Assembly (NCBI GenBank): GCA_014237145.1
Contig: JAAXOC010000110.1
Coordinates: forward strand, 25,639 to 89,638
DNA length: 64,000 nucleotides
Direction of reading: 5' to 3'
Source: ANME-2 cluster archaeon
GTDB lineage: Archaea; Halobacteriota; Methanosarcinia; Methanosarcinales; Methanocomedenaceae
Position numbers and translations under genes: made by a program. Of the stretch, positions 22,486 to 35,373 are shown piece after piece. The notes below the pieces were generated by a model. The model worked only from the letters and a program-made list of their open reading frames with translations, did no database searches and was not told where the DNA came from. The first letter of the stretch is position 1. Every line of letters begins with the position of its first letter.

Positions 22486-22747
22486 AATTTCACCCTCCAC
22501 TTTTAAAATTTTCAACTTTTCACCCCCATTCAAGATAAAACCTTTGAAGCCTTTGCTTGATGTGTTGCTGGCAAGAATGTTTGGATTATCATCTACATCC
22601 CTATGTGCGACCTGGGAACCAGATGCAATATGTTCTGCATGATGCCATTATCAATGTATTATTTGACCTGCATGCCCTTTTAGATTTCATTAAGCATTGC
22701 TGATAGAATCCTGCCACCTATTCGCATGCTATGACTGCCTGTCTTTA

Positions 22748-22925
22748 TCAGGCGTAGATCAATCTGCCCTTTGATGTTGGAATATTCCATCCCAGTTCTT
22801 TGGCTGTTTCTATCCATTCTTCAATTACAATAAGGGCGTTTCGAACGGCTTTTTTGCATGTCCTGCCGTCTGCCGTACCCTTACTGCTAATCCGTGGAGC
22901 ATACTTCGTGCTTCATAGGTCATTT
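22748..22925 (-). pseudogene. frameshifted remnant of a HicB-like (UPF0150) antitoxin
   Basis: Two frames on the reverse strand read MTYEARSMLHGLAVRVRQTAGHAKKPFETPLL* and KKAVRNALIVIEEWIETAKELGWNIPTSKGRLIYA*, together resembling a HicB-type antitoxin broken by a frameshift. Confidence 0.3.
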
Positions 22926-22935
22926 TAAAAACACC

Positions 22936-23232
22936 TTATGTGATCCGGGAATATTTTTTCAATTTTTCCCTTGCTTTTATACATTCATCGATCCAGTTTT
23001 TCAGAAGAACATTTGAACTGATACCTTCTTCAAGCGCAATTCCCCGCACTGACCTTGCACGTTCCTCACCCAGTGGAATGACCAGAACACCTTTATCCCG
23101 CTTAAATTCAACAGATATCTCATCATCATCCATGTCTTCAAAATAATCAGCTGAATCGTGGGTGTCCCAGAAGTCCCTCATTTCCTGTTCCGTCTTGAAC
23201 TGTGGAATTTTTTTCATCATTATACTATTCAC
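22936..23232 (-). CDS. BrnA-like antitoxin (type II TA)
   Basis: 98 aa; DSADYFED...LVIPLGEERARSVRGIALEEGIS pattern of BrnA family; overlaps toxin gene by 4 nt. Confidence 0.6.
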   Translation of the reverse strand: MNSIMMKKIPQFKTEQEMRDFWDTHDSADYFEDMDDDEISVEFKRDKGVLVIPLGEERARSVRGIALEEGISSNVLLKNWIDECIKAREKLKKYSRIT

Positions 23233-23498
23233 CTCTTAAGATATAATTTTTTTTCGCGTTTTGTCATATCTCTTGCAGTAATTATCCGGACAACTCCTGT
23301 CCCGAGATATAAATATACAACAAACAAATACCGCCCACTACTTGTTTGACCATAAACATACCGCGTCCCATCCCTCCCGATCCTGAAATATGGATCACCA
23401 ATGAACACACTTTCAACTTCGAATTTGGTTACGTTATGCCTCCACTGAATGTGTTTTTCATTTTCTTCATCCCATTGAAATTCTATTATTTTAATCAA
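23229..23498 (-). CDS. BrnT-like (DUF497) toxin
   Basis: 89 aa; FEWDEEK-type N-terminus (FQWDEENEKHIQWRHNV) and RIITARDMTKREKKLY C-terminus. Confidence 0.65.
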   Translation of the reverse strand: MIKIIEFQWDEENEKHIQWRHNVTKFEVESVFIGDPYFRIGRDGTRYVYGQTSSGRYLFVVYLYLGTGVVRIITARDMTKREKKLYLKR

Positions 23499-23650
23499 AA
23501 TGTTCCGCCTCGTTTAAGAAGTTCTCCAATCTCTCCCTTATCAATAACGACCTGGATATTGTGATCACACTTGATCCTGACTGTCGATTCATGTGCTATA
23601 CTTAGTATTTCATCCTTGTCGAGCTTTACTGGCCATATAATCTCCTTTTC

Positions 23651-24952
23651 TTACAATTTCGCTCCACATTCAAAGCAGAATTTCTCATCACCTTCAACCT
23701 CCTTACCACAATTTGAACACGTGATCTTACCTGCTCCTAAATTGGAACGCTGGATTACGGAATCACTTACTTGACTCCCGATTTTATCGCCTATATGAAT
23801 ATATTGTACTGTGCCATTGGTCGCAGGTTTCTCAATTGCTTCAGGCTTTCGCTTATATCGAAGAAGTAAACCGATTAACAGTAAAATAATTATTATACTA
23901 CCGATCAACACCCAGCCGGGTGGTATTGACAAAGTTCCGGGAGGTGTTGAACCTAGTGGATTTTCAGCTCCAATTATAACTGTAGGTTCCGGAGAAGTAT
24001 ATTTACGGACACGTACCCAATCTATATAATGGATTTCGCCACCCCATGAATATAACTGCAAATAGAGTTGATCATTTGGTATATTTTTTGTAACTGTTAT
24101 TTTAGGATCATATTGCCGGAATGTCTCTATTTTTTCTGATGACCTTGTCATTCCGAGAACTTCAAAGGAAGTTGGGAATCTTTCGTTATTTGTATTCGAA
24201 TGAAATATCTTATCATTAAGTGTTACCAAAAGCATTTCATCAGTATTTTCCCAGCTACCAAACTCAAATCTGTCGTTTGCATCAAGTATATTATAGTCAT
24301 TCGTTGAACGCAGCAAGGACTTTGGCAGATTGCCAGTATCGCTTATTTTTGAGAATGATTCGAAAATATGATCATATCCAAAGGCTTCGACCTTCTCAGA
24401 TACAATACAATCACCATTTAAACTCAAAACACTATCAGAAACTGAAGGTTTTCCGTAATTTATATGCCATTTCGATTCGTCTATTCCGGTCCCGCCAAAA
24501 TCATCAAAGAAATCAAATGTTGCTTCGCCATTACTTACTTCGATTGCTGACGGATTGTTATAGTACATCAGCAATTTGGTTTCACCATTTGCCGGGATTC
24601 TTGGTACTTTTACCCAAATTATTGCTTTATTGCTGCTGTAATCCCACAATTCGATCCAGTGAGTGAGTTCCTTACTATTTTCATCTGCAAATCTTATGTC
24701 AATACCATCGGGTTTTGCTTCAAGTGGGAAATTCGTTCCTGAAAGTTCTACAAGCACTTGAAAATCTACAAGGGTTTTTCCACTATTTTCCTGTACGCTT
24801 ATCTCCTCATAGTCCTCCCATGATCCACCTCCCGAATTCGACAATGTGGGAGATGCCACGTGCTTATGAGACCTGCTATCAGCACCAACGCAATAATCCC
24901 TATCGCAAAGGTGTGCACCGCAGAACGCATTCGTATTGTCATAATATTTCAC
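23651..24952 (-). CDS. membrane protein with DUF2341 + concanavalin/LamG-like ectodomain, single TM and C-terminal zinc ribbon tail
   Basis: 433 aa; DUF2341 signature (DGIDIRFADENSKELTHWIELWD...AIIWVKVPRIPANGETKLLMYYNN); TM GWVLIGSIIIILLLIGLLLRYKRK; tail SVIQRSNLGAGKITCSNCGKEVEGDEKFCFECGAKL. Confidence 0.7.
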   Translation of the reverse strand: MKYYDNTNAFCGAHLCDRDYCVGADSRSHKHVASPTLSNSGGGSWEDYEEISVQENSGKTLVDFQVLVELSGTNFPLEAKPDGIDIRFADENSKELTHWIELWDYSSNKAIIWVKVPRIPANGETKLLMYYNNPSAIEVSNGEATFDFFDDFGGTGIDESKWHINYGKPSVSDSVLSLNGDCIVSEKVEAFGYDHIFESFSKISDTGNLPKSLLRSTNDYNILDANDRFEFGSWENTDEMLLVTLNDKIFHSNTNNERFPTSFEVLGMTRSSEKIETFRQYDPKITVTKNIPNDQLYLQLYSWGGEIHYIDWVRVRKYTSPEPTVIIGAENPLGSTPPGTLSIPPGWVLIGSIIIILLLIGLLLRYKRKPEAIEKPATNGTVQYIHIGDKIGSQVSDSVIQRSNLGAGKITCSNCGKEVEGDEKFCFECGAKL

Positions 24953-25009
24953 CGCTCTTAATTTCGCTTCATACTCAGATAGTTTTTATTATTTCCTGGA
25001 ACGGTTTAT

Positions 25010-25077
25010 AACCACAGAGTGCACAGAGAGCACAGAGAAAACAATAACGCTCTGTGCCCTCTGTGTTCTCCGTGGTT
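25010..25077. repeat. short palindromic CACAGAG-type intergenic repeat, copy 2
   Basis: aaccacagagtgcacagagagcacagag...ctctgtgccctctgtgttctccgtggtt; same termini and core as 16827-16891. Confidence 0.7.
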
Positions 25078-25134
25078 GATCTTCTTTGCCATGATCCATA
25101 AGGTTTGCATCTACTACTACCGCTACTTAACGAA

Positions 25135-25383
25135 CTATGCTTTCGCAGCAATTCGAAATACCGATTCTTGATGAGATTTTATTTTTTTTACAGATATTTC
25201 TTCCACTGTTTTTTCTATGTACTCATCCGACTCTGCTGTTAAGTATTCCATGCCGCAGATCGTGCAAATATCTGCATCAACATTTTCAATCGCAATTAAT
25301 CCTTGTTCAGATTCGGTGATGAATTTGGTTTTACTTCGTTCCATTTTTCCACCGCAATCAGGACATTTTTTTAATCTTGCCAT
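25135..25383 (-). CDS. YgiT-type zinc-finger protein (MqsA-like antitoxin N-domain)
   Basis: 82 aa; CPDCGG...CTICGMEY four-cysteine arrangement. Confidence 0.55.
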   Translation of the reverse strand: MARLKKCPDCGGKMERSKTKFITESEQGLIAIENVDADICTICGMEYLTAESDEYIEKTVEEISVKKIKSHQESVFRIAAKA

Positions 25384-25516
25384 ATCTACCTACTTTTCAG
25401 CCCATGGGGTCTGGTTTATTATTTTAACTTTGTACTGGATAATAGCACCCTTTTCTTCGACTTTCTCTGAAACAATCCATTCACCACCGTGATTCCAGAT
25501 CGGTTCACCATATATT

Positions 25517-25774
25517 TCAGGCAACAACCTCCTCGTATGCGTAGGTATGCCCGATCAAGCGATATGCTTCAGTAAATCCCTGCTCAAGCTCTTTTCGGAT
25601 TTTCTGCATATTCTCATTAGTTTTTTTTGCATAGTAACGTTCTCCGCATTTCGTGCATACACCAGCTTCGATCGTGAGTACTGCTGAATTACAGCCTCCT
25701 ATAACGACCTTTTCTACTGTTTTCTCGACCACCTCGCCTCCGCAGTGGGGACAGACCGGGATTATCTTTTTCAT
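25517..25774 (-). CDS. YgiT-type zinc-finger protein (putative antitoxin partner of DUF4258)
   Basis: 85 aa; CPHCGG...CTKCGERYY. Confidence 0.6.
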   Translation of the reverse strand: MKKIIPVCPHCGGEVVEKTVEKVVIGGCNSAVLTIEAGVCTKCGERYYAKKTNENMQKIRKELEQGFTEAYRLIGHTYAYEEVVA

Positions 25775-25779
25775 TTATT

Positions 25780-26112
25780 TCACCTCTTTGGTTTTCTCAT
25801 TTTATAATTAATCCACCTTTCAGGGTCAGGTATATATGCAGCTATAAGCACTGCGATTTCATGCTTTTCTGAATGTGCCCAAACACTGTGGATATGCCTG
25901 TTATTTTTATCATTACCACATATAAGACAGCTTGGAAATGGTTTATCGTCAGCATAGTCTTCTATCACTTCACCATGCAGTACTGAAAAATACAGGTCAT
26001 TATCTTCGATAGCATCATTTGCAAGCTCATCATCTGCATGGTCTGAGATGTTTACATTTCCTTTTCGTATAGCTTCCTGTATTTTTGCATTTCCATCAGC
26101 TATTTCCTCCAA
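25780..26112 (-). CDS. DUF4258-family protein (putative toxin)
   Basis: ORF 25780..26190 in track overlaps upstream gene; a TTG at 26110-26112 is a plausible start; C-terminal HIHSVWAHSEKHEIAVLIAAYIPDPERW resembles DUF4258. Confidence 0.45.
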   Translation of the reverse strand: MEEIADGNAKIQEAIRKGNVNISDHADDELANDAIEDNDLYFSVLHGEVIEDYADDKPFPSCLICGNDKNNRHIHSVWAHSEKHEIAVLIAAYIPDPERWINYKMRKPKR

Positions 26113-26692
26113 GTTTCGCCCCGCACCCAAGGCAGAATTTCTCGTTAGCTTCCACTTCCCTGCCGCATTCGGGACATTGTGCCCTTGCACCGAGGTCGAT
26201 GTTTGAGCGCTGGATGATGTTATCTTTTATTTCAGTCTTGTGTACATGATACTGGATTATCCCCTCTTCAATGAATATCTTGATGTCAAGCCTTTTCTCG
26301 ATCTCATCCAGAATCCTGTGATAAAAGCCAGTCAGAGCTTCCTCCTTCTCAGCCCATGCCTTGAGTATCATCCTGGATCTGCGCCCGCCTACTACTTCAA
26401 TATAGGCGGCATAACGCAGTCCGGCAGCACCTTCGGCATAGAACATGCCCACGCCTGTGAATAACTGGGGTGTGGATGTGATCTCCGGCGGTATCATGTA
26501 CATGCTCATATCTTTCAGTATACGGGTGGCTATATTGAACAGGTTCTCTGCCGGGATGTCAAGGTCTTTGGTGTTCTCTTCGGCTTTTATCAGTTCTTCG
26601 GTTGCATTTCTCCAGCTGTCCTCGTCGATATCTTTTCTTTTCAGGACCGGGCAGACAATGCTTATCATTTTCTTTTTGATGTCAATAAACAC
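26096..26692 (-). CDS. soluble paralog consisting only of the conserved cytoplasmic module + zinc ribbon
   Basis: 198 aa; roughly two-thirds identical by eye to residues ~365-563 of the 19690..21381 product (SIVCPVLKRKD...PQLFTGVGMFYAEGAAGLRYAAYIEVVGGRRSRMILKAWAEKEEAL...IIQRSNIDLGARAQCPECGREVEANEKFCLGCGAKL); no TM. Confidence 0.65.
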   Translation of the reverse strand: MFIDIKKKMISIVCPVLKRKDIDEDSWRNATEELIKAEENTKDLDIPAENLFNIATRILKDMSMYMIPPEITSTPQLFTGVGMFYAEGAAGLRYAAYIEVVGGRRSRMILKAWAEKEEALTGFYHRILDEIEKRLDIKIFIEEGIIQYHVHKTEIKDNIIQRSNIDLGARAQCPECGREVEANEKFCLGCGAKLGGNS

Positions 26693-26710
26693 CGGACTGC
26701 GACCCCAATT

Positions 26711-27775
26711 CTACGTATCCGCAATCACCTCTCGCACCGCAAGCAAATCCAGTCTCGACTGGGCCCTCATCATATTCTCTGATGGGTCTACGAAAATAAT
26801 GTTATTTCTTACAAGATAGCTTATCTCTGGCGTAATATGCCCATACGCATGGTTCACGTTCTCTTTTAACTTTGATAACTCCTCTACTAAGTTATCATAG
26901 ACAACTTCGTGAAGTTCTCCTCGAAACTCGATCTCCTCTCCGTAAGCCAGAAGAGAATTTAATAATTCGCTTATCTGGCTCATTCTGACCTTTAGCATCT
27001 TCGCAACCATTTTCTCCACATCTTCTACCCTTGTTAGTTCTACAAGGTAAACTGGCTTACCCCCGCAATAATTCCATGCAAGTTCCTTCTCTTTCTCGCT
27101 AAATTCATAGTTCTCCAAAAAACCCATTGTCGTATCTTTATCAAAATCGTCCACCAGCAGATATCTGCACCGCCCGGAGAGCATCGCCTCACTATAAACC
27201 TGCTCGATGAAGAGTGAATCCGATGAAACAGCAAAAATGTGGCACAGATGTAATTCCTTTGTCAGTCTGATAAAAAAATTAAATAATTTATACATCAATA
27301 ATTCATTGATCTTTATGTCTCCAATCACCTGCAGCTCATCGATGATCAACACCGGAATGCGGTTTTTTGATATCTCTGTAAAGAACTGCTCGATGTATTT
27401 GAACATATCTTTGCTTTTATCTTTCTTTTCAAATATCCGCTCAAACAGATTTATTGGTATCGGAATTCCACTGACTGCTCCCAGATCCTTTATTATCGAT
27501 TTCGCATACTCGGAAACGTTATCAACCCCGCCCCTCTCGTCGATCTCGAATAGGATGTTTAAGAAGTCTTCATAGTCAGTAATGAACCTCCCACGCAGAT
27601 TGACGTAGAAAGGGGCATAATCATCTGGCAGTTCTTTAACCAGATGGCTAATCATTGTGGTCTTTCCGCTGTTGATCGGACCGTAGACAAACGTTATCAG
27701 GGATGGCTCTGCATTCAGAATATCCATGATCTCTTTCGTCTCCTTTTCCCTATCGTAAAATTCAATTCGTCTCAT
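26711..27775 (-). CDS. archaeal ATPase (PF01637-like P-loop NTPase with C-terminal wHTH)
   Basis: 354 aa; RRIEFYDREKE...FVYGPINSGKTT Walker A, LIIDELQ Walker B context typical of Arch_ATPase. Confidence 0.75.
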   Translation of the reverse strand: MRRIEFYDREKETKEIMDILNAEPSLITFVYGPINSGKTTMISHLVKELPDDYAPFYVNLRGRFITDYEDFLNILFEIDERGGVDNVSEYAKSIIKDLGAVSGIPIPINLFERIFEKKDKSKDMFKYIEQFFTEISKNRIPVLIIDELQVIGDIKINELLMYKLFNFFIRLTKELHLCHIFAVSSDSLFIEQVYSEAMLSGRCRYLLVDDFDKDTTMGFLENYEFSEKEKELAWNYCGGKPVYLVELTRVEDVEKMVAKMLKVRMSQISELLNSLLAYGEEIEFRGELHEVVYDNLVEELSKLKENVNHAYGHITPEISYLVRNNIIFVDPSENMMRAQSRLDLLAVREVIADT

Positions 27776-27857
27776 ATTCTTTCCCTCCTCATGTATGCCG
27801 CCAGCAACCCGATGATCGCGCCAACCACCACGAATCCGGGCGTGCTCATCCCATGGA

Positions 27858-28094
27858 TCACCCCATTATCCCCATTCCCTGAACTATCCACCAAATCATT
27901 CCCTGACCCTTATCGAAATGCCACTTTGCGACAAGCCCGGCATTCCCCTGCACCGACACCATAGCCCCGCAGTGTGGACACTTACTCACCTTTGCACCTG
28001 CCCCTACCCCTGCCGAAACCGGCTTAGCCGCATCCATCAACTTAGCATCCAGCTCCTGCCTGCGGTAGGCATCCTTGCGCTCCCTATCCTTCAT
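27858..28094 (-). pseudogene. orphan duplicated 3' fragment of the SPFH-zinc-ribbon gene (zinc-ribbon tail cassette), frameshifted
   Basis: DNA 27900-28094 aligns at about 90% identity by eye with 31350-31560 (3' end of 31347..32654); translation MKDRERKDAYRRQELDAKLMDAAKPVSAGVGAGAKVSKCPHCGAMVSVQ then diverges by frameshift. Confidence 0.65.
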
Positions 28095-28140
28095 AAATAT
28101 GATCTTGTCCTCCTTTCATACTCAGTATAATCTCCTCTTT

Positions 28141-31100
28141 TCACAATTTTGCCCCGCACTCAAGACAGAACTTCTGTTCATCCTCAACCTCTATGCCGCA
28201 GTTTGGGCACTTCTTCGTACCTGCGCCAATAGTTGACCGCTCGACATTAGAATCCTTAATGTGGATGCTTACATTGTTGGCATTATTTGCAATACTACTC
28301 CTACGCACCCAGCTATCCTCTATTACCACATTTCCATCGCATATTCCATTAATATCGCAGGCGCCTAAAAGGTTGCTCCGCATTATTTGGGAATCTTTGA
28401 TGGAGACATTGAATACAGGTGCGAGTTTTCCAAGAGCTTCTCCTCTTTTTGAAAAATTTCGTCCAAGCTCAGCAAACAAACCTATTATATCTTCCTGATC
28501 CGGAGCTGCCACAAAGATTTCAATTCTTTCAGTCTCTTTGCTTACACTTGCCTTGATTACAAGATCGATCATCTTAACCTTTGTCTTTCCGTAGTACCAT
28601 GTCTCATAGGTCTTGTCATCAGTAGTCTTAAAAGTCCTCACATGGCGCACATCATGCATTTGGATGACCTCGCGGCACAGTGTCAGTGCCTTATTTATAC
28701 TAACTCCACTGGGCAGTAAAAATTCCTTACTGCTCTGGGCAGGAAGCGAGGCAACAAGTTCCTTCAGCCTGCCAATATTTATGTCCTGCTCGGTTTTGAA
28801 CAATGGGCATACGATTGGAATTTTTACAGGTTCCATTCTAACCAAATCAGGTTTACCATAAGCATCTTTGTAGTCAATCCTGCAATTAATTACCCCACCC
28901 TTCGAGCAGATTAAGCCCTCAAAATACAATACGATTGTTTTATCGCCATTTGATGCTATATTTCCAAGCTGAATCTTTTCCTTTTTCATAGCATAAGTAT
29001 TTGGTTCGTGATGATCGAATCTCAAGACGTTCTCATCATGCTCGATATCAAGGGAGACATCTGTGGCTGTAAGCTGCATTTTGTTTTGTACTGATATTTT
29101 AAGACGGATAAACCCATTGAAGAAATCATCTTTTCGGAGAACCACAAACTTATTGGAATCAGTCATAACCTTTTCACTTGGACTCGTAACACTTTCCCCT
29201 GCCGTCTCTATGTCTGTACTTATCTGGATTATTGCTGTATCCTCAGTCTTGTAGACTCTATCCAAAATATCTTTAAATTCTACAACGTAGTCGACTGGAA
29301 CTTCTCCTTTTTCAGTTGGTTTTATGTTAACATTTATAGTTTTTTGCTTACCAGCCTCAAGTCTTTTGATAATTTTAAAGTCTCGCACCTCAAGAGCTGT
29401 TAAGAAAGTAATCGTTATGGCTACGGCATGAGCAGTTCCCTTGTTTGTTACTATTAAATCCCGATGTTTCCAGGCTTTGTACTCCATCTTTGGTGGCAGT
29501 TCTATGCTAATTGAAGGCTTGCTTTCGTCAATTAATTGTTCAGTTGTGCCCCTACTCTTATTAGCGTAACTTATCGCACTGTTGTAATCATTTGCATCAA
29601 AAGCAGACTGTGCTTTGGTGTTTAGTTCTTCACCACTCTGCACTGTGACGCCAAGCTTTTTGGCTTTTTCCAGTGAATTTTTCGCAATTTTTATTTTTTC
29701 TGCTGTATCAGTTCGCAACTGCTCTAACTCTCTCTGCTTGCGTGCCTGTTCTGCTTTTTGTTGTTCATAATCCTTCACTGCAATATTTATATTTTCACTG
29801 CATTTGTGTGCATACTCTTTAGCAGTTGCAAAATGTCCTGCATCAACTTCTTTTCGTGCGTCCTGCAACAATTGTTGAATACTCTGTTGAATATTCACGC
29901 CTCTGTTCATCGCATCCTGTAAATCAATTTCTACATCTTGAATGGCTGACTTTGCTTTTTCTAGCGGTGAATAGTTTTTAGTAGGTATAAAATTAGGTTC
30001 TAATGCTGAACGTTTTGCTGGCTTATGTGACTTTTGGGATGAAGTTTGTATCACTTCCGGCGCCATTCTCCTTCTTTTTCCAACAGCGACAATGCCACCT
30101 AATACAATCATAGCGCCTACCCCAATAAATAACCAGTTTGTATCATTTATATCACTTGTGGCTGGTATGGAATTAACGTTTAACAGATGGACACCATTGC
30201 CCCCAACTGCAAGAAAAGATCCGTCAGGAGAGGTTGAAACACTATGGACAAAAAAAGGTGTGTTATAAGTCCATAGTTTTTTGCCATTTCGGTTAAAGAA
30301 GTGGACTAAGCCGCCATTGCCTCCTGCTGCCACAAAGGAGCCATCTGTTGAGATAGAAACTCCCCAGATATCCTCATGCTTTATATTTCCCCAGAAATCT
30401 TTCTTCGCATTATAATTCCAGAGTTCAGCGCCATTATGGTCTAATAGGTAGATATTTCCATTCGTACCTCCTGCTGCCACATAGGAACCATCAGCAGATA
30501 TGGAAATTTTTTGGACACTTCTGTCATCATTTATAGCATATAAATCATAGTTCCAGAGTTTTTTACCATCGCCATTAAAGAGATATATATCAGAATCCAT
30601 TACAGCGGCGATAGAAGAACCATCTGCAGATATAGCGATGTCGTCTACTTCATGAACTGTATCATAAGTCCAAAGTATTTCACCATTGAGATTGAAAAGG
30701 TAGATGGTCCCATTTGGATGGTTTCGCCAGTCACCACTACCGACTGCCACATAGGCTCCATCTGAGGACATTGCGATGCCATTAACTTTATCAGATATAT
30801 TATAGTTCCATAGTTTCTCACCATCAAGATTAAACAGATAAACATTGTTATTATCCCAACCAACTCCCGCTGCCACATAAGAACCATCGTCGGATATAGC
30901 GACATCCCAAACAGCATATTCCATTTTATAGTTCCATAATTTTTCACCATTATTATTGAGGAGGATAACATTACCCATCTGTTCACCATAGCTATCACCA
31001 CTACCAACCGCAATATAGGAACCGTCAGCAGACATGGCGACATCCCAAGCAATCTGATCAAGTTCATAATTCCAATCGAAGTAATCTATTGGCTCTGTAG

Positions 31101-31173
31101 CTACTACACCTTGGACTTGACAAATAATAAGAATTAAAAAAAATAGTGATTTTTTACTTAATGACATATTCAT
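28141..31173 (-). CDS. large single-pass membrane protein: extracellular multi-blade beta-propeller + TM + coiled coil + beta-sandwich domains + conserved module + zinc ribbon
   Basis: ORF 28141..31248; likely start MNMSLSKKSLFFLILIICQVQG (signal peptide); ~8 repeats of SxDGSYVAxG...LWNY; TM WLFIGVGAMIVLGGIVAVGKRRR; QQKAEQARKQRELEQLR coiled coil; IVCPLFKTEQD segment; C-term SNVERSTIGAGTKKCPNCGIEVEDEQKFCLECGAKL. Confidence 0.7.
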   Translation of the reverse strand: MNMSLSKKSLFFLILIICQVQGVVATEPIDYFDWNYELDQIAWDVAMSADGSYIAVGSGDSYGEQMGNVILLNNNGEKLWNYKMEYAVWDVAISDDGSYVAAGVGWDNNNVYLFNLDGEKLWNYNISDKVNGIAMSSDGAYVAVGSGDWRNHPNGTIYLFNLNGEILWTYDTVHEVDDIAISADGSSIAAVMDSDIYLFNGDGKKLWNYDLYAINDDRSVQKISISADGSYVAAGGTNGNIYLLDHNGAELWNYNAKKDFWGNIKHEDIWGVSISTDGSFVAAGGNGGLVHFFNRNGKKLWTYNTPFFVHSVSTSPDGSFLAVGGNGVHLLNVNSIPATSDINDTNWLFIGVGAMIVLGGIVAVGKRRRMAPEVIQTSSQKSHKPAKRSALEPNFIPTKNYSPLEKAKSAIQDVEIDLQDAMNRGVNIQQSIQQLLQDARKEVDAGHFATAKEYAHKCSENINIAVKDYEQQKAEQARKQRELEQLRTDTAEKIKIAKNSLEKAKKLGVTVQSGEELNTKAQSAFDANDYNSAISYANKSRGTTEQLIDESKPSISIELPPKMEYKAWKHRDLIVTNKGTAHAVAITITFLTALEVRDFKIIKRLEAGKQKTINVNIKPTEKGEVPVDYVVEFKDILDRVYKTEDTAIIQISTDIETAGESVTSPSEKVMTDSNKFVVLRKDDFFNGFIRLKISVQNKMQLTATDVSLDIEHDENVLRFDHHEPNTYAMKKEKIQLGNIASNGDKTIVLYFEGLICSKGGVINCRIDYKDAYGKPDLVRMEPVKIPIVCPLFKTEQDINIGRLKELVASLPAQSSKEFLLPSGVSINKALTLCREVIQMHDVRHVRTFKTTDDKTYETWYYGKTKVKMIDLVIKASVSKETERIEIFVAAPDQEDIIGLFAELGRNFSKRGEALGKLAPVFNVSIKDSQIMRSNLLGACDINGICDGNVVIEDSWVRRSSIANNANNVSIHIKDSNVERSTIGAGTKKCPNCGIEVEDEQKFCLECGAKL

Positions 31174-31346
31174 AATACCCCATGAAGTTGGTTTAATTTC
31201 AAGTCTTATTATGTTCTTCCCACAGTTTATACACTTGCGGACACCCATACCAATATTTAACCGTTAGATGTCGTATATTTTACTTAAAAACACGTGTTTA
31301 CTACCAATATATAGATTTATTTCCAAATATCAATACCCTTTTTTTT

Positions 31347-32654
31347 TCAATCCATCTTCCCCCCACACTCCCCACAGAACTTCGCCTGCACCGGCACCAT
31401 AGCCCCGCAGTGTGGACACTTCCTCAACTTCGCACCAGAACTTGCACCTACCCCTGCCGATACCGGCTTGGCCGCATCCATCAATTTAGCATCCAGTTCC
31501 TGCCTTCGGTAAGCATCCTTGCGCTCCCTGTCCTCAACCCCCTTCATAAACTCAACCTTTTCATCTTTCGCTTTTGCCTCGCTTTCCCTAACCTTAGCCA
31601 GCGCCTCGATCTGCTCCGCCGAAAGATTACTCAACTCACGCCCTTCACTAATAGTCTTCGCAACATCGGCACCGTCCGCCTCAGTAACAGTCTTCATATA
31701 CTCCATATCCCGGCCGTGCTCTCTATCCTTCATATCCTGCTCAACCTCAAGCTCGGCACGCATACCCCTGGCCTTTGAAAGGTGCATCTCCTCCTTTAGC
31801 TTCAATGCCTCACGGGCCGCCTTGATATCTGCCTCGTCCTCTCGCTGCTCTCTTTCAATCTGTGCCCGAACATCTTTAAGCTCCTGCTCCCGCCTGAAAT
31901 CCTTTTCAACTGATATGGGAGCATGTCTGGCCCGTACTCCAGCCACATCCACCCTGCCTTCCCTTTCCAGTCCCCCCTCCTTCGAGATAGTATCAAGTTC
32001 AGCCAGTTCTTCCCCTGTCTGGAACTCCTGGTGAGCTTCAAGTATAGTCTTGTATTCGCCAAGGTCCCACTCTGCCGTATGTTTCAACAGTTCCAGGCCC
32101 CACATATCCAGTGTCTGTTCAAGCTGGGATTCCAGTTCATTCTCGATTGTGATCTGCAAGTCCCGGTTGCCGTATATATCTTCCATAGGCATACGGCTGA
32201 TCTCAGGTTCAAGTACCCGTGTCAATACCTCGCTCTGCAGGCGTGCGTATATATCCCGGACTCCAAGGGCACGTTCACCTTTCTTATCAGTAGTTGAATA
32301 AGCATATACCATTGAAAAGAACCGTTTTATATCCCCTATCTTGAAACGAATTAACCCGCTGCAACCAAGTTTCTGTTTATCTGCTGTCCAGAGTTCACCC
32401 ATGTTCCAGTTAAGGTCTTTGGGCGAAGTGTCCATTATGACTACATCCACGTCCTTTAAAAAATTCCCGGGTTTCAGCAATCCGCCGACACGGATCTTCC
32501 CGCTGTCCAGTACATCTGTTACCTCGCCGTTCTTGACTATCACAGCTTTTTCATTAGGCTGGATGATCAGGTCCTTTTTAAGGATACCACCCACCTGGTT
32601 TTTCGGTATATTCCTGGCAATATCACTTACATCTCGCAACCATTTCCGGGCCAT
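31347..32654 (-). CDS. SPFH/band-7 (flotillin-like) domain protein with long coiled coil and C-terminal zinc ribbon
   Basis: 435 aa; N-terminal SPFH-like segment (NEKAVIVKNGEVTDVLDSGKIRV...DVDVVIMDTSPKDLNWN...LIRFKIGDIKRFF), E/R/K-rich coiled coil, tail KCPHCGAMVPVQAKFCGECGGKMD; no TM helix. Confidence 0.6.
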   Translation of the reverse strand: MARKWLRDVSDIARNIPKNQVGGILKKDLIIQPNEKAVIVKNGEVTDVLDSGKIRVGGLLKPGNFLKDVDVVIMDTSPKDLNWNMGELWTADKQKLGCSGLIRFKIGDIKRFFSMVYAYSTTDKKGERALGVRDIYARLQSEVLTRVLEPEISRMPMEDIYGNRDLQITIENELESQLEQTLDMWGLELLKHTAEWDLGEYKTILEAHQEFQTGEELAELDTISKEGGLEREGRVDVAGVRARHAPISVEKDFRREQELKDVRAQIEREQREDEADIKAAREALKLKEEMHLSKARGMRAELEVEQDMKDREHGRDMEYMKTVTEADGADVAKTISEGRELSNLSAEQIEALAKVRESEAKAKDEKVEFMKGVEDRERKDAYRRQELDAKLMDAAKPVSAGVGASSGAKLRKCPHCGAMVPVQAKFCGECGGKMD

Positions 32655-32776
32655 TCTCTGTAAACCTCCTTGATATTATTAATGAGAAAATATTATATAT
32701 AATGTTTTCTATTGTATACAATTGAAGACAAGGAGGTAGTCACATCACCATAAGATCACATGCAATCAGTGCAAGG

Positions 32777-32902
32777 GTGTCCGGGGACCTGAAAAATTAC
32801 CTCGATGCTCTTGTCGAACGCGGAATTGCAATAAACACCTCTGAGGCTGTCAAGATATGTATCAGGTATGCTAAACAAAAAAAGATGGAGGAGGAACTTT
32901 AA
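32777..32902 (+). CDS. possible small ribbon-helix-helix (CopG/Arc-like) protein, start uncertain
   Basis: Unlisted ORF (<60 aa): (ITIRSHAIS)ARVSGDLKNYLDALVERGIAINTSEAVKICIRYAKQKKMEEEL* ends one codon before the ESCRT-III-like gene; only in-frame canonical start is GTG at 32777, which would truncate the beta-strand, so it may be non-canonical or decayed. Confidence 0.3.
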   Translation: MSGDLKNYLDALVERGIAINTSEAVKICIRYAKQKKMEEEL

Positions 32903-33460
32903 ATGGGATTGTTAAGTAAAAAAATATCACCGGATGAACTGAAAACAAAATTGTCTATCCACGAGCAGCGGCTCACAGCCAGGGAAAACGAACTAAAGAA
33001 AAAGAAAGACAGATCCAGGGAAGAGTCAAAACAGGCCCTGGCGTCCGGTAACGACAGAGAGTACAGGGTATCTTCACGCAGGTACAGCATGCTTGACGGG
33101 CAGGTCGGCACCATAAGCAATATGGTGGAGATGGCACAGAGCATGACCGATGTCATAGAAATGCAGCAGGGTCTGAAAGAAGTAGTGGAGATCGGGAACG
33201 ACCTGGGCAAATACCAGAAGCAGCTGGGTATCAATACCGGACAACTTGAAGGTGCTATCACAAATATCAGGACAAGCATGGAGAAGGTCAACGTTGCTAC
33301 TAACACCATGACATCAGCCATGGATGCAGCTATGAGCGGGGGCCAGGAACTGACTGATGTGCAGGACAGTTTAAGAGCCGAACTGATGGCTGAGATCGAA
33401 GGCGATTCAGTCGATAAGCAGGAACTGGACAAGCAGATCAAGGAAGAGTTGAAGCAGTAA
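32903..33460 (+). CDS. ESCRT-III family protein (Snf7/CHMP-like)
   Basis: 185 aa; N-terminus MGLLSKKISPDELKTKLSIHEQRL... closely parallels CHMP2 (MDLLFGRRKTPEELLRQNQRALNRAMRELDRE...); basic N-half, acidic C-half, all coiled coil. Confidence 0.7.
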   Translation: MGLLSKKISPDELKTKLSIHEQRLTARENELKKKKDRSREESKQALASGNDREYRVSSRRYSMLDGQVGTISNMVEMAQSMTDVIEMQQGLKEVVEIGNDLGKYQKQLGINTGQLEGAITNIRTSMEKVNVATNTMTSAMDAAMSGGQELTDVQDSLRAELMAEIEGDSVDKQELDKQIKEELKQ

Positions 33461-33509
33461 ATATTTCTGGGCGAATGCATTATTTGCTCCCTGGAAAGGA
33501 AAGTGGTCT

Positions 33510-33989
33510 ATGGCAAGCGATATTGACTTAGATAATGAAATATCTGTAACACCTGAACAGATCATCTGGATGTTAAGTTCATGTGACAAGGACTTTATTA
33601 TTGATATTCCAACCATATTGATCAACAATGCAGATCGAATTGATTTTAATGAATTGATCAATATTGCTTTTGAAGCTGGATCAGGTTACAGTTTACTTGC
33701 GCTTATCGATGTGGCAAATAAGTTGGAGCACAATGATGCTTTTTTCAAGGTACTGTCCCGGCAGTATCCTTCTAACATTGAGGGAAATGTAATTGAAGAT
33801 AATATTTTTCCAGTCCATAAGTTCAGGCAGCTGATAAAGCGGTCTTTTTTAGAGAGGATCGAGGAGCGGTGGAATGTTCGTATTGCTTTCACATTTGATG
33901 ATTTCTATAAAATATACCGTGACTATCATCTGCTGCCTGTGCATGGTGAGGGATTAAGGAAATATTTTGGTGATATTATTGAGATTTAA
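33510..33989 (+). CDS. hypothetical protein between ESCRT-III-like and Vps4-like genes
   Basis: 159 aa, acidic, no recognisable domain. Confidence 0.4.
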   Translation: MASDIDLDNEISVTPEQIIWMLSSCDKDFIIDIPTILINNADRIDFNELINIAFEAGSGYSLLALIDVANKLEHNDAFFKVLSRQYPSNIEGNVIEDNIFPVHKFRQLIKRSFLERIEERWNVRIAFTFDDFYKIYRDYHLLPVHGEGLRKYFGDIIEI

Positions 33990-34035
33990 AGCGAATCAAT
34001 TTCGGTATCAGAGAATCTAATGAAAATATTTACAT

Positions 34036-34170
34036 TATAGTCTACTGAATAACAATCAATAAAATATTAACCTCATATAAACGCGATAAACACAGATAGG
34101 ATGCAGCAAATCTGCGTTCATTTGCGTTTATCTGCGGTTCGATTTCCCATAAGTTTGGTGGGAGACTATA
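34036..34170. mobile_element. ~135-bp MITE-like element, copy 1 (TIR tatagtct / agactata; palindromic core ataaacacagat...gcgttcatttgcgtttatctgcggtt)
   Basis: Inverted termini tatagtct (34036-34043) and agactata (34163-34170); core shares ataaacacagat, gcgttcatYtgcg and atctgcggtt with the copy at 59241-59373. Confidence 0.6.
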
Positions 34171-34230
34171 ATACTCACGACAGTATCGTTTAGAAAAGCA
34201 ATTTAAAGAAATACAAATAAGGAATAAAAA

Positions 34231-35373
34231 ATGCCCACATCATCATCCCTCTCTGCCGAAGCCCGTGGCCTTGCAAAAGCAGCAAAAACAGCAGAGCAGG
34301 CTGGAAATATCGAAAAAGCACGTTCACTATACCTCAAGGCAGCAGACAAGTTCAACCAGGCCTCCTCCCTTAACCCTGAGAAGCTGGATAAGAACACCCA
34401 ACACGGTCTGGCAAAACATTTCTATGAACACGGCCGCTCGCTGGGCAAACAACCAGCTTCAATTGGAGGCAGTTCCGGGTCACTGGACGAACCCATTCTC
34501 TCAAAAGATGAACTGATAGTAAGTGAAAAACCCGACATCGGATTTAGTGACATAGGCGGCCTTGATAGCGTAAAAGAAGATATGAAAAAAGCCATCATCT
34601 ATCCCTTCACGCATAAAAAACTCTACGATTACTATAATCAAAAACCAGGTGGGGGCGTACTTCTCTACGGACCGCCCGGGTGTGGCAAGACCATGATCGC
34701 AAAAGCAGCAGCATCCGAGTGTGATGCTGATTTCATCAATGTTGAGACCAGTACCATAATGAGCAAATGGGTCGGTGAATCCGAAAAAAGCATTAAACAG
34801 GTATTCTCGATTGCCAGGGAATGCAACCGTGCGATCATATTTTTCGATGAGTTCGATGCAGTGGCTGGAAGACGCGGGGAGTTAGAGGATTATGCCAAGC
34901 GCATAGTCAATGAACTGCTCCAGCAGATGGACGGCATGGACAAAAATGATAACATCCTTGTGCTTGCAGCAACCAACGAACCGTGGGCTATCGATCCTGC
35001 ACTACGCCGTCCCGGCAGGTTTAAAAAACTGATATTCATACCACCACCCGACCTTGAAGCAAGAAAAGCGATATTCAATATTTATCTTCAAAAACTTCCA
35101 CTCGAAAACAATGTAGACGCTGGAACTCTGTCAAATAAGACAGATATGTATTCAGGAGCAGATATAAAGGCCATTTGTGACGATGCGGCAGAGATACCAT
35201 TACAGGAAGCATTGGAAGGGAAAGAAGCTAGGAAGATAGCTCTAAATGATTTTAGTACTGTACTCTCAAGTAGAAGGTCTTCCATCATACCATGGCAGAG
35301 GCTGGCAGTGGAGCAGGTAAGGAAAAGCGGTGAGGAAAATATTTTCAAAGAGATTATCGAACTTGAAAAATAA
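34231..35373 (+). CDS. Vps4/CdvC-like AAA+ ATPase with N-terminal MIT domain
   Basis: 380 aa; N-terminal three-helix MIT-like region (AEARGLAKAAKTAEQAGNIEKARSLYLKAADKFNQA), Walker A LLYGPPGCGKTM, Walker B IIFFDEFD, second region of homology, Vps4-type C-terminal helix. Confidence 0.8.
   Translation: MPTSSSLSAEARGLAKAAKTAEQAGNIEKARSLYLKAADKFNQASSLNPEKLDKNTQHGLAKHFYEHGRSLGKQPASIGGSSGSLDEPILSKDELIVSEKPDIGFSDIGGLDSVKEDMKKAIIYPFTHKKLYDYYNQKPGGGVLLYGPPGCGKTMIAKAAASECDADFINVETSTIMSKWVGESEKSIKQVFSIARECNRAIIFFDEFDAVAGRRGELEDYAKRIVNELLQQMDGMDKNDNILVLAATNEPWAIDPALRRPGRFKKLIFIPPPDLEARKAIFNIYLQKLPLENNVDAGTLSNKTDMYSGADIKAICDDAAEIPLQEALEGKEARKIALNDFSTVLSSRRSSIIPWQRLAVEQVRKSGEENIFKEIIELEK

What the first reader, a model, noticed from the sequence alone, without database searches (positions are those of the whole stretch)
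27858..28094. Orphan, frameshifted copy of the zinc-ribbon tail immediately downstream of another family member
DNA 27900-28094 is about 90% identical by eye to the last ~200 bp of the SPFH-zinc-ribbon gene (31350-31560), but it lies directly after the stop of the 1035-aa family member. It encodes ...RERKDAYRRQELDAKLMDAAKPVSAGVGAG...KCPHCGAMV and then shifts frame. This is a recent segmental copy of only the tail. Such silent tail cassettes next to expressed genes may be products of recombination that swaps tails among family members, or substrates for it. This would be domain shuffling in action.
Basis: seen in the sequence. Interest (0 to 1): 0.55.

Follow-up and report, generated by a model that had tools for sequence, protein, structure and literature searches.

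The report
Dead fused copy of SPFH tail minigene
The orphan "tail" is real, but it is an old, broken copy of a small helix-plus-zinc-ribbon gene that was fused by deletions to scraps of two other genes, so it is debris from rearrangements in a fast-changing archaeal gene array rather than a recent copy or a working tail-swapping cassette.

Summary
Confirmed: on the minus strand, 27943-28090 matches the 3' end of the SPFH/zinc-ribbon gene (31381-31534) at 88-91% identity (E 1e-51). It starts 46 nt after the stop of the 1035-aa gene and is identical in at least 8 independent assemblies.

It is not a recent copy. Synonymous divergence from the resident tail is about 0.45, the same as to SPFH tails of sister species. 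Its spacer and first 25 nt group it with tail-only minigenes of 59-73 aa. In relatives these lie 46 nt behind zinc-ribbon genes of the same family, mostly intact, with dN/dS 0.13-0.34.

The "frameshift" is a breakpoint. At 27944 the tail is fused in frame, between its two CxxC motifs, to the first ~30 codons of a LamG-type family gene. One relative still has that layout intact. After a 1-nt deletion (about 27906) comes a PGF-CTERM end whose stop overlaps the ATPase start codon.

Orthologous copies in two relatives carry different lesions and different left flanks, so the tail marks past recombination.

No recombinase, reverse transcriptase, tRNA or Rfam RNA lies nearby, and the copy offers no sequence diversity to donate.

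Verdict: a gene-fragment mosaic inside a Meth_adaptin-type ESCRT-like locus. Modest interest.

The parts
31347..32654 (-). SPFH (Band_7) protein with a coiled coil and a C-terminal double-CxxC zinc ribbon, 435 aa. This is the kind of gene from which the tail derives.
   Evidence: Translation. Pfam Band_7 E 1.8e-11, with weak DZR and Zn_ribbon hits. Orthologues sit in the same place in L011, L016-L021 and L036-L048.
31381..31534 (-). The segment of the SPFH tail that is repeated in the orphan (direct repeat, 3.44 kb away).
   Evidence: BLASTN 87.7% over 154 columns, E 1e-51. Families D5 and D6. Alignment A1.
28141..31248 (-). 1035-aa family member with a PQQ/WD40-like beta-propeller, a transmembrane segment, an Ig/CARDB-like region and a C-terminal zinc ribbon. 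It lies between the two tail repeats.
   Evidence: A 54% identical homologue occupies the same position after SPFH in L039, with no orphan behind it.
28095..28140 (-). Conserved 46-nt spacer between the stop of a zinc-ribbon family gene and the ATG of the tail minigene (called the type-B junction here). It contains a GGAGG motif.
   Evidence: Homologous in the window, L044 and L022 (A3). The same 46-nt spacing occurs twice in L087, once in L089 and once in L091. It is 87.8% identical between the window and L087.
27945..28094 (-). Remnant of the tail minigene, codons 1-50: charged helix, Gly/Ala linker and the first CxxC (CPHC). The second CxxC and the stop are missing. A 9-nt deletion removes the residues EIE.
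   Evidence: Identity table. dN/dS 0.14-0.35 against other tails.
27858..28094 (-). The 78-aa chimeric ORF as it now stands: tail codons 1-50, LamG-start codons 51-65, then 13 out-of-frame codons.
   Evidence: No Pfam hit and no meaningful NCBIfam hit. Annotated as a hypothetical protein of an ANME-2 cluster archaeon.
27900..27944 (-). First half of a relic of the mature N-terminus of a LamG-type family gene (NAGLVAKWHFDKGQG), joined in frame to the tail. A 1-nt deletion relative to L010 and L087 at about 27906 ends the frame.
   Evidence: The frame is continuous in P0018/L010 and in L087. BLASTP against residues 27-54 of the L091 Laminin_G_3 + zinc-ribbon protein: 59% identity, E 2e-10. The window ORF itself scores E 3e-4. 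The L041 888-aa family member has the same N-terminus.
27772..27894 (-). Second half of the LamG relic (LVDSSGNGDNGVIHG) fused to a PGF-CTERM sorting-signal relic (STPGFVVVGAIIGLLAAYMRRERI*). It is in the -1 frame relative to the 78-aa ORF. Its stop overlaps the ATPase ATG (ATGA).
   Evidence: Frame analysis. Pfam PGF-CTERM 17.4 bits. TIGR04126 24.4 bits against a cut-off of 24.5; the L087 copy scores 26.2.
26711..27775 (-). Archaeal ATPase_2 gene that travels with the relic block. It is mosaic compared with L087.
   Evidence: Pfam ATPase_2 E 5e-55. Alignment with L087: both ends about 94-95% identical, the middle about 55-60%.
26096..26692 (-). 198-aa ORF that is the 3' third of a PEGA-type family gene. 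The 5' two-thirds were lost where the block holding the relics and the ATPase now sits.
   Evidence: It is 92-95% identical to the last 192 aa of 560-730-aa genes in L011, L016-L019 and L036-L038.

Best explanation
The feature is a dead, truncated copy of a small tail-only gene, welded by deletions to scraps of two other genes.

Shown:
- In relatives of this ANME-2d/Methanoperedens-like archaeon, a 59-73-aa minigene encodes the same helix-plus-zinc-ribbon module as the C-terminus of the SPFH protein. It sits 46 nt behind genes of a paralogous family that all end in a zinc ribbon.
- The window copy shares that spacer and start codon but stops being tail-like at 27944.
- From 27944 it continues in frame into the first ~30 codons of a LamG-type family gene. 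Then comes a 1-nt deletion, then a PGF-CTERM end whose stop overlaps the ATPase start.

Inferred history:
1. The ancestral layout was family gene, 46 nt, minigene, about 40 nt, LamG-type family gene. L091 still has this layout.
2. A deletion of about 150 bp removed the second CxxC of the minigene, its stop, the spacer and the LamG signal peptide.
3. A second deletion joined the LamG start to the PGF-CTERM end of a gene lying upstream of an ATPase.
4. Homologous recombination within the tail and within the zinc-ribbon coding sequence later put this block behind different genes in different lineages.

Inferred function now: none for the tail remnant itself. It is probably co-transcribed with the 1035-aa gene. 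It persists as a 148-bp direct repeat of the SPFH tail that could still mediate deletions.
For: - The junction after a family gene's zinc ribbon is homologous in the window, L044, L022, L087 (twice), L089 and L091.
- Five of the nine copies that share this junction (counting the weak, degenerate tail match 32 nt behind a family gene in L021/L042) are intact ORFs with four Cys.
- Among the six intact tail-only copies (five behind a family gene plus L011, behind the 60-aa ORF), dN/dS is 0.13-0.34 in 14 of 15 pairs (0.53 in the other), with P down to 3e-6 and dS up to 1.2.
- The window copy lacks the second CxxC.
- The sequence after 27944 is a LamG N-terminus: E 2e-10 against the L091 Laminin_G_3 protein, which lies 38 nt after an intact minigene.
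- The PGF-CTERM relic is supported.
- Three orthologous copies share the tail|LamG junction but carry different lesions. The window has a 9-nt deletion and a 1-nt frameshift. L087_O1 has a 50-nt deletion of the first CxxC. L010 has the same deletion, a 15-nt deletion and frameshifts.
- On the window branch the LamG-PGF part changes mostly at non-synonymous sites (2 synonymous against 12 non-synonymous differences versus L010).
- The left flanks differ: 48% identity upstream of the zinc ribbon between the window and L087, and a 60-aa ORF in L010. The right flank is about 92% identical.
- There is no Rfam hit and no tRNA, and no recombinase, reverse transcriptase or transposase was found among the neighbours scanned.
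- Region 27700-28250 is identical in contigs of five samples, and a short contig of a sixth matches over the part it covers.
Against: - The remaining 50 tail codons still look constrained. dN/dS is 0.09 against the orthologous broken copy in L087 (7 synonymous, 3 non-synonymous differences).
- The ORF keeps its ATG and a GGAGG motif.
- This could mean the helix part is still used.
- It can equally be explained by gene conversion from functional tails. The tail's dS of 0.53 is about four times that of the adjacent relic (0.14).
- The counts are small, and no expression data were available.
Confidence: 0.7

Rival explanations
1. The 78-aa ORF is still a working small protein. Its conserved charged helix (MK..RER.DAYRRQELDAKLMDAAKP) would act alone, for example by binding whatever the SPFH tail binds, and the zinc ribbon would be dispensable.
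For: The ATG, the GGAGG motif and the 46-nt spacer are retained. dN/dS of the remaining tail codons is 0.09-0.35, including against the orthologous broken copy in L087. The ORF is kept unchanged in all assemblies of this population.
Against: The defining four-Cys ribbon is destroyed. The C-terminal 28 residues are an out-of-context LamG fragment followed by frameshifted sequence. Orthologues in L087 and L010 are broken in different ways and end differently (ECRACRKVAFR*). The low dN/dS is also what gene conversion from functional tails would produce. The identical assemblies are one population and say nothing about selection.
Confidence: 0.13
2. This is the first reader's idea: a silent tail cassette kept as a donor or acceptor for programmed recombination that swaps tails among family members.
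For: The tail and the zinc-ribbon 3' ends are where homology starts between otherwise different gene arrangements. L087 carries a tandem duplication of the unit made of zinc-ribbon end, 46 nt and tail. The tail part has a higher dS than its flank, which suggests conversion.
Against: The copy encodes nearly the same peptide as the expressed tail, so there is no diversity to swap. There is only one extra copy in 64 kb. No site-specific recombinase, reverse transcriptase or inverted repeats are present. Mismatches between the copies are mostly third-position transitions and are not adenine-specific. Every assembly has the same junction. A crossover with the SPFH tail would delete the 1035-aa gene and destroy the SPFH zinc ribbon.
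Confidence: 0.05
3. The two tail repeats are att-like target duplications left when the 1035-aa gene was inserted as a mobile cassette into the 3' end of the SPFH gene.
For: Direct repeats of about 150 bp bracket a single 3.1-kb gene. Close relatives (L016-L019) have no 1035-aa gene after SPFH.
Against: The repeats differ by dS 0.45. No integrase was seen among the neighbours scanned and the window has no tRNA. L039 has the 1035-aa homologue after SPFH with no orphan repeat. The same orphan junction occurs behind unrelated family genes far from any SPFH gene (L087, L089, L091).
Confidence: 0.04
4. A programmed -1 frameshift restores a zinc ribbon. The -1 frame reads ECRACRKVAFR*, which supplies a second CxxC.
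For: The -1 frame after VSVQG contains CRAC followed by a stop.
Against: There is no X_XXY_YYZ slippery heptamer at the site (sequence). The same nucleotides read as a LamG motif that is conserved in relatives and matches real LamG genes at E 2e-10. In L010 and L087 the first CxxC is deleted, so no four-Cys ribbon could be made there.
Confidence: 0.02
5. Assembly artefact: a chimeric or collapsed repeat.
For: None beyond the presence of a repeat.
Against: The junction is identical in three MAGs and three independent Logan assemblies. Orthologous junctions at about 90% identity are present in other species (L010, L087).
Confidence: 0.01

Closest known systems
Gene remnants from partial duplication, deletion and fusion in tandem paralogue arrays (ordinary prokaryotic pseudogene fragments)
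   Same: It is a truncated coding fragment with a clear parent. Its lesions differ between lineages, and it is fused to fragments of neighbouring genes. It has no signals of its own beyond those it inherited.
   Different: The parent is not the neighbouring full-length gene. It is a small tail-only minigene lineage that is itself conserved (dN/dS 0.13-0.34 in 14 of 15 pairs). The remaining codons still look constrained.
Orphan C-terminal modules downstream of cdiA and rhs genes (orphan CT/immunity cassettes; from my own knowledge, not checked in papers here)
   Same: A 3' gene fragment lies just downstream of a full-length gene and shares a homology patch that allows recombination.
   Different: Orphan CTs carry a different toxin plus an immunity gene, which gives diversity worth swapping. 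Here the orphan encodes the same peptide as the expressed tail and has no partner gene. It lies behind a gene whose own tail is only distantly similar.
Silent-cassette gene-conversion systems (pilS/pilE, vls, tprK donor sites; from my own knowledge)
   Same: A partial copy near an expressed gene, with hints of conversion (tail dS above flank dS).
   Different: Those systems have many variable cassettes and population heterogeneity. Here there is one near-identical copy, and the assemblies compared over this region are identical.
Template-repeat/variable-repeat pairs of diversity-generating retroelements (from my own knowledge)
   Same: A repeat of about 150 bp at about 90% identity to the 3' end of a nearby gene.
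   Different: The mismatches are mixed and mostly synonymous transitions, not adenine-specific. No reverse transcriptase was found among the neighbours scanned. The repeat is a zinc ribbon, not a C-type-lectin variable region.
Meth_adaptin-type archaeal ESCRT neighbourhoods (Makarova et al. 2024, PMC11188069): Vps4-like ATPase, ESCRT-III, SPFH with coiled coil and zinc ribbon, and adaptin-appendage proteins with a zinc ribbon and variable N-terminal domains
   Same: This is the genomic context. An AAA+MIT ATPase lies at 34231..35373. The SPFH + zinc-ribbon gene is present. The zinc-ribbon-tailed paralogues have a C-terminal module whose model best matches COPI and AP2 appendage domains.
   Different: The parts of the paper I read (text-search excerpts only) do not mention tail-only minigenes or expanded, rearranging arrays. 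The appendage assignment here rests on a low-confidence model.

Membership tests
SPFH C-terminal tail module (charged helix + Gly/Ala linker + double-CxxC zinc ribbon) | Sequence homology of the helix and linker segment | tested here: met
   88-91% DNA identity to 31381-31534. tblastn covers TAIL residues 25-85 at 80% identity, E 3e-26.
SPFH C-terminal tail module (charged helix + Gly/Ala linker + double-CxxC zinc ribbon) | Four zinc-binding Cys (CxxC...CxxC) in one frame | tested here: not met
   Only CPHC is present in the ORF. The second knuckle is replaced by NAGLVAKWHFD. There is no Pfam zinc-ribbon hit, unlike the SPFH gene here and the precomputed Pfam hits of several tail-only proteins such as P0006.
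Tail-only minigene behind a zinc-ribbon family gene (type-B junction; defined here) | Conserved 46-nt spacer after the stop of a zinc-ribbon family gene, and the conserved ATG (FMKEIED) | tested here: met
   Alignment A3. Same spacing in L087 (twice), L089 and L091. 87.8% identity to L087.
Tail-only minigene behind a zinc-ribbon family gene (type-B junction; defined here) | Complete ORF of 59-73 aa that ends just after the second CxxC | tested here: not met
   Homology ends at 27944. The ORF runs on into a LamG relic and then frameshifted sequence.
Silent recombination cassette (pilS / vls / orphan-CT type) | The cassette carries sequence that differs in kind from the expressed copy, giving diversity to donate | tested here: not met
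   dN is about 0.07 against the resident tail, and the differences are mostly synonymous.
Silent recombination cassette (pilS / vls / orphan-CT type) | Population heterogeneity or alternative junctions within a strain | not testable with these tools
   No read-level data were available. The assemblies compared over this region are identical. Alternative left junctions are seen only between species.
Diversity-generating retroelement (template and variable repeats) | Adenine-specific mismatches and a nearby reverse transcriptase | tested here: not met
   Mismatches are mixed transitions and transversions at third codon positions. No reverse-transcriptase domain was found in the neighbours scanned. 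The whole window was not scanned exhaustively.
PGF-CTERM archaeosortase sorting signal (TIGR04126 / PF18204) | PGF motif, hydrophobic helix and basic tail at the extreme C-terminus | tested here: inconclusive
   The window copy scores 24.4 bits against a cut-off of 24.5 (E 1.6e-5). The orthologous L087 copy scores 26.2 bits and passes. Pfam gives 17.4 bits against 18.8 for the window and 19.1 for P0018. It is a relic fragment with no signal peptide upstream.
LamG / Laminin_G_3 domain (N-terminal strand only) | GLVA.WHFD...DSSGNG.DG.I.GA motif at the mature N-terminus | tested here: met
   59% identity over 32 residues, E 2e-10, to residues 27-54 of the L091 protein, which carries PF13385. tblastn against the L041 888-aa protein gives E 6e-5. 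The fragment is too short for a Pfam hit.
Meth_adaptin ESCRT-like locus (PMC11188069) | Vps4-like AAA ATPase with a MIT domain | tested here: met
   ORF 34231..35373(+): AAA E 1e-42, AAA_lid_3, MIT E 1.5e-5 (below Pfam's gathering score).
Meth_adaptin ESCRT-like locus (PMC11188069) | SPFH protein with a coiled coil and a zinc ribbon | tested here: met
   and the sequence.
Meth_adaptin ESCRT-like locus (PMC11188069) | Adaptin-appendage-like (Ig + TBP/platform) proteins with a zinc ribbon | tested here: inconclusive
   The model of the last 294 aa of the 563-aa gene has mean pLDDT 53.7, and only the Ig domain is confident. The top Foldseek PDB hits are still COPI gamma and AP2 alpha/beta2 appendages, E 3e-8 to 3e-5, over 230-260 columns.
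Meth_adaptin ESCRT-like locus (PMC11188069) | ESCRT-III/PspA-like protein | tested here: inconclusive
   The candidates are 32899..33480(-) and 33510..33989(+). Both lack a Pfam hit. The first also has no NCBIfam hit and no PDB sequence hit. No structure was predicted for either.
Programmed -1 ribosomal frameshift | Slippery heptamer and conservation of the trans-frame product | tested here: not met
   There is no X_XXY_YYZ at CAG GGG AAT. Relatives lack the first CxxC, so no ribbon could be restored.

The most novel reading that the evidence does not exclude
The tail-only minigenes are real, trans-acting parts of the archaeal ESCRT-like system. These are 59-73-aa stand-alone copies of the SPFH C-terminal helix plus zinc ribbon, kept 46 nt behind the adaptor-like zinc-ribbon genes. 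They might cap or compete with the SPFH cage lid, or with whatever the zinc-ribbon tails dock to. Their DNA would also serve as a portable homology patch that lets Methanoperedens-like archaea exchange whole adaptor genes between arrays. The window would then hold a recently killed member of that set, possibly with a still-active helix.
Probability: 0.2. Interest if true: 0.5.

Novelty: new member of a known kind. Interest (0 to 1): 0.27.

Why it matters
The window feature on its own is ordinary: a gene-fragment mosaic. Two things around it are worth knowing.

1. It shows how an expanded array of zinc-ribbon-tailed, adaptin-appendage-like membrane proteins is rebuilt. The locus resembles the recently described Meth_adaptin ESCRT systems. 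Breakpoints fall in the shared zinc-ribbon and tail sequences. Ectodomains of PQQ, PEGA, LamG and DUF2341 type are exchanged on a common cytoplasmic module.

2. It led to a small tail-only gene lineage that is under purifying selection in relatives. I did not find it described in the excerpts of the ESCRT paper I read, and it has no specific Pfam or NCBIfam family. If that lineage is functional, it adds a component to a system proposed to resemble the ancestral archaeal protein-sorting machinery.

For annotation, 27858..28094 should be flagged as a pseudogene or chimeric remnant rather than as a hypothetical protein.

Tried and rejected
- DGR reading: rejected. Mismatches are not adenine-specific and no reverse transcriptase was seen.
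- Integrative-element att duplication: rejected. No integrase among the neighbours scanned, no tRNA in the window, dS 0.45 between the repeats, and the same junction occurs away from any SPFH gene.
- Non-coding RNA: no Rfam match in 26500-32800 at E <= 1.
- Restoring the ribbon through the -1 frame (ECRACRKVAFR*). I first took this CxxC for the second knuckle and built a "repaired" query from it. Comparison with P0018, L087 and L091 showed that the same bases are a LamG-domain start, so I dropped the idea.
- Gene conversion specifically from the resident SPFH tail: not supported. The orphan is no closer to its own SPFH tail (91.1%) than to those of sister species (92.5% and 92.1%).
- Census with a profile against 1.84 billion representatives. 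It was swamped by generic multi-zinc-ribbon proteins. Only about 14 short clusters match the tail-specific part, and some may be contig-edge fragments, so I did not use it for counting.
- The genome-contig scan returned only 7 relevant loci, and the window's own species was not among them.
- The structure model of the family's C-terminal module came from a 3-sequence alignment and is of low confidence. I used it only as weak context.
- The sigma-70 promoter and terminator scan was not run, because the organism is an archaeon.
Full report
**1. What is there**

All genes in this part of the window are on the minus strand. ORF 27858..28094 (-) has 78 codons and reads MKDRERKDAYRRQELDAKLMDAAKPVSAGVGAGAKVSKCPHCGAMVSVQGNAGLVAKWHFDKGQGMIWWIVQGMGIMG*. 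Its ATG lies 46 nt after the stop of the 1035-aa gene 28141..31248.

BLASTN of 27700-28200 against the whole window finds one other copy. Positions 27943-28090 match 31381-31534 at 87.7% over 154 columns (E 1e-51). The repeat finder splits this into a 95-nt piece at 91% and a 72-nt piece at 83%.

The partner is the 3' end of gene 31347..32654. That gene is an SPFH/Band_7 protein of 435 aa that ends in ...CPHCGAMVPVQAKFCGECGGKMD*.

Compared with that tail, the orphan has two in-frame deletions and then a 4-nt gap between the two CxxC motifs. After the gap the two sequences are no longer alike. The similarity covers about 150 nt rather than 200 and leaves out the second zinc knuckle.

**2. Not an artefact**

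The exact 78-aa ORF is on at least 8 contigs. These come from three NCBI MAGs (GCA_014237125.1, GCA_014237135.1 and GCA_014237495.1, annotated as ANME-2 cluster archaeon) and three independent Logan assemblies (SRR1237970, SRR8365245, SRR11888061). The DNA is 99.96-100% identical over up to 12.8 kb. Positions 27700-28250 are identical in every contig that spans them.

**3. The locus in relatives**

Syntenic loci at about 90% nucleotide identity are L011/L012, L016-L019 and L036-L038. They have this order: a 185-aa ORF, SPFH with its tail, a PEGA-type gene of 560-730 aa ending in a zinc ribbon, toxin-antitoxin genes, then a DUF2341 + zinc-ribbon gene.

The window's 198-aa ORF (26096..26692) is 92-95% identical to only the last 192 residues of that PEGA-type gene. 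The window therefore has a 5'-truncated copy. The block 26.7-31.25 kb (1035-aa gene, orphan, relics, ATPase_2 gene) sits where relatives have the front of the PEGA-type gene.

L039 has SPFH, a 54% identical homologue of the 1035-aa gene, and a full PEGA gene, with no orphan.

**4. The orphan belongs to a lineage of tail-only minigenes**

A search with a conceptual repair of the region returned 28 small proteins of 58-110 aa. Most read MKEIEDRER.DAYRRQELDAKLMDAAKPVSAG...KCPHCGAMVPVQAKFCGECGGKM, and several carry precomputed Pfam zinc-ribbon hits.

Their contexts show a recurring junction:
- the second CxxC of a family gene (..KFCxECGAKL*);
- a conserved 46-nt spacer;
- the ATG of the minigene.

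This junction is homologous at the DNA level in the window, L044 and L022 (A3). It also occurs twice in L087, once in L089 and once in L091.

A second junction type is a 60-aa ORF followed by a longer tail copy. It occurs just after SPFH in L011, L012, L036 and L037, and also in L010.

In the first 25 nt the window orphan is 88% identical to the minigenes that sit behind family genes and 68% to SPFH tails. In the 146-nt core it is 92.5% identical to the SPFH tail of L011, 92.1% to that of L017, 91.1% to the window's own tail, and about 89% to the orphans of L044 and L022.

**5. Age and selection**

Nei-Gojobori estimates give dS = 0.45 between the orphan and the resident SPFH tail. Orthologous SPFH tails of sister species differ by dS 0.18-0.33. 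The copy is therefore not recent.

Among the six intact tail-only minigenes, dN/dS is 0.13-0.34 in 14 of 15 pairs and 0.53 in the other. The excess of synonymous changes reaches P = 3e-6, and dS reaches about 1.2 for L091 against the rest. SPFH tails give 0.28-0.42. The minigene lineage is thus either maintained as coding sequence or continually converted from functional tails.

Of the nine copies that sit behind a family gene, five are intact: L044, L022 copy 1, L087 copy 2, L089 and L091. Four are broken: the window, L087 copy 1, L022 copy 2, and a weak, degenerate tail match 32 nt behind a family gene in L021/L042.

**6. The "frameshift" is a fusion point**

P0018 comes from the 508-bp contig L010. 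It reads MQGNAGLVAKWHFDEGAGCVLVDSSRNGDNGVIHGASMPGFVVVVAIMGLLAVYMRRERI in one frame. That links the window's NAGLVAKWHFDKGQG (the ORF's frame) to LVDSSGNGDNGVIHGMSTPGFVVVGAIIGLLAAYMRRERI* (the -1 frame, 27772-27894).

The first part is the mature N-terminus of LamG-type members of the same family:
- It is 59% identical (E 2e-10) to residues 27-54 of the L091 protein, which carries Laminin_G_3 and a C-terminal zinc ribbon and starts 38 nt after an intact minigene.
- The L041 888-aa family member begins the same way.

The last part is a PGF-CTERM sorting signal. TIGR04126 scores 24.4 bits for the window copy against a cut-off of 24.5, and 26.2 bits for the L087 copy. Pfam agrees. Its stop overlaps the ATG of the ATPase_2 gene 26711..27775.

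The -1-frame string ECRACRKVAFR*, which looks like a second knuckle, is encoded by the same bases as the LamG motif. I take it to be coincidence.

The window also has a 1-nt deletion at about 27906 relative to L010 and L087, which breaks the LamG-PGF frame.

**7. Decay and recombination**

The tail|LamG|PGF|ATPase junction is shared by the window, L010 and the first copy in L087, so it predates their split. Each copy carries different further lesions:
- the window has a 9-nt deletion and the 1-nt frameshift;
- L087 has a 50-nt deletion that removes the first CxxC;
- L010 has that deletion plus a 15-nt deletion and frameshifts.

The left flanks are unrelated: the 1035-aa gene in the window, a PEGA/p198-type gene in L087, and the 60-aa ORF in L010. 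Identity between the window and L087 is 48% upstream of the zinc ribbon. It then rises to 88% in the spacer, 90% in the tail and 92% in the relic. The ATPase is mosaic, about 95% at both ends and about 55-60% in the middle.

Between the window and L087, the tail part has 7 synonymous and 3 non-synonymous differences (dS 0.53). The adjacent relic has dS 0.14 and dN/dS 0.5-1.8 on comparisons that involve the window. This fits replacement or conversion of the tail patch from functional copies rather than selection on the relic. The counts are small.

L087 also shows a tandem duplication of the unit, in which an ATPase 5' fragment is fused to a family-gene 3' fragment.

**8. What is absent**

- No Rfam match in 26500-32800.
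- No tRNA in the window.
- No recombinase, transposase or reverse transcriptase among the neighbours scanned. These are a radical-SAM protein, AAA+MIT, PFOR subunits, DUF4258/MqsA and BrnT/CopG.
- No inverted repeats in 19-33.5 kb.
- The differences between the two tail copies are mixed and mostly at third codon positions. They are not adenine-specific.

**9. Context**

The neighbourhood fits the Meth_adaptin-type archaeal ESCRT systems described by Makarova et al. 2024 (PMC11188069). Those hold a Vps4-like ATPase, ESCRT-III, an SPFH protein with a coiled coil and a zinc ribbon, and adaptin-appendage proteins with a zinc ribbon and a variable N-terminal domain.

- The window has an AAA+MIT ATPase at 34231..35373 and the SPFH + zinc-ribbon gene.
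- I modelled the last 294 aa of the 563-aa family member. Mean pLDDT is 53.7, and only the Ig domain is confident. Its best PDB matches are COPI gamma and AP2 alpha/beta2 appendage domains (E 3e-8 to 3e-5).
- This assignment is weak, and the ESCRT-III candidate was not confirmed.

**10. Verdict**

It is an orphan tail that sits at recombination breakpoints.
- It is wrong on recency, on the source of the copy, on the nature of the "frameshift", and on a dedicated cassette role.
- Best explanation (about 0.7): a dead, deletion-fused copy of a tail-only minigene, carried in a rearranging paralogue array.
- The main open point is whether the still-conserved helix is expressed and used (about 0.13).
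- More broadly, it is open whether the intact minigenes of relatives are functional parts of the ESCRT-like system.

Noticed in passing
window 31347-35373 (also 19690-31248): The whole neighbourhood looks like a Meth_adaptin-type archaeal ESCRT locus (PMC11188069). It has a Vps4-like AAA+MIT ATPase at 34231..35373(+), two unannotated ORFs (32899..33480(-) and 33510..33989(+)) that might be ESCRT-III-like, the SPFH + zinc-ribbon gene, and an expanded array of zinc-ribbon-tailed proteins with PQQ, PEGA, DUF2341 and LamG ectodomains.
   Followed up: partly
window 26096-26692 (-): The 198-aa ORF is only the last third of a PEGA-type family gene. It is 92-95% identical to the C-termini of 560-730-aa genes in relatives, so it is a 5'-truncated gene and probably another relic or a shortened product.
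   Followed up: yes
window 26711-27775 (-) vs L087:618-1685: The ATPase_2 gene is mosaic between species. Both ends are about 94-95% identical and the middle 400 nt about 55-60%, which suggests recombination among ATPase_2 paralogues.
   Followed up: partly
L010:280-462; L087:about 440-620; window 27772-27944: A mini-ORF of 57-60 aa, made of a LamG-start fragment plus a PGF-CTERM helix, is intact in two relatives. There its dN/dS is 0.21, and its stop overlaps the ATPase start (ATGA). It might be a new small tail-anchored membrane protein in those lineages. It is frameshifted in the window.
   Followed up: partly
L011:9817-10279, L036:4977-5436, L037:6418-6877, L010:3-300: There is a second kind of orphan. 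A conserved 60-aa ORF (MEKAFTILKQELNAEEYLIYLQAITPRLEDATKELQEKTEGLSLHEVFDGAKSMEQRIGS, no Pfam hit) is followed directly by a longer tail copy of 92 aa, which is intact in L011. It lies right after the SPFH gene.
   Followed up: partly
L087:1757-2460: A tandem duplication in a relative. An 88-aa ATPase_2 5' fragment is fused to a 69-aa family-gene 3' fragment, followed by the 46-nt spacer and a second, intact minigene. A DDE transposase gene lies at the contig end.
   Followed up: no
window 22936-23498 and 25135-26190 (-): Toxin-antitoxin pairs (BrnT/CopG, and DUF4258 with MqsA-like proteins) are interspersed among the family genes and are conserved in the syntenic loci of relatives.
   Followed up: no
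window 27943-28090 and 31381-31534: The two tail copies are 148-154-bp direct repeats that bracket the 1035-aa gene. Homologous recombination between them would delete that gene and leave the SPFH protein with a broken zinc ribbon. No such variant was seen in the assemblies.
   Followed up: partly
L015:8202-10333: In a more distant relative, a 608-aa protein carries an N-terminal double zinc ribbon and a Band_7 domain. Its tail is called as a separate, overlapping 110-aa ORF (P0021), which looks like a frameshift near the 3' end of the SPFH gene.
   Followed up: no
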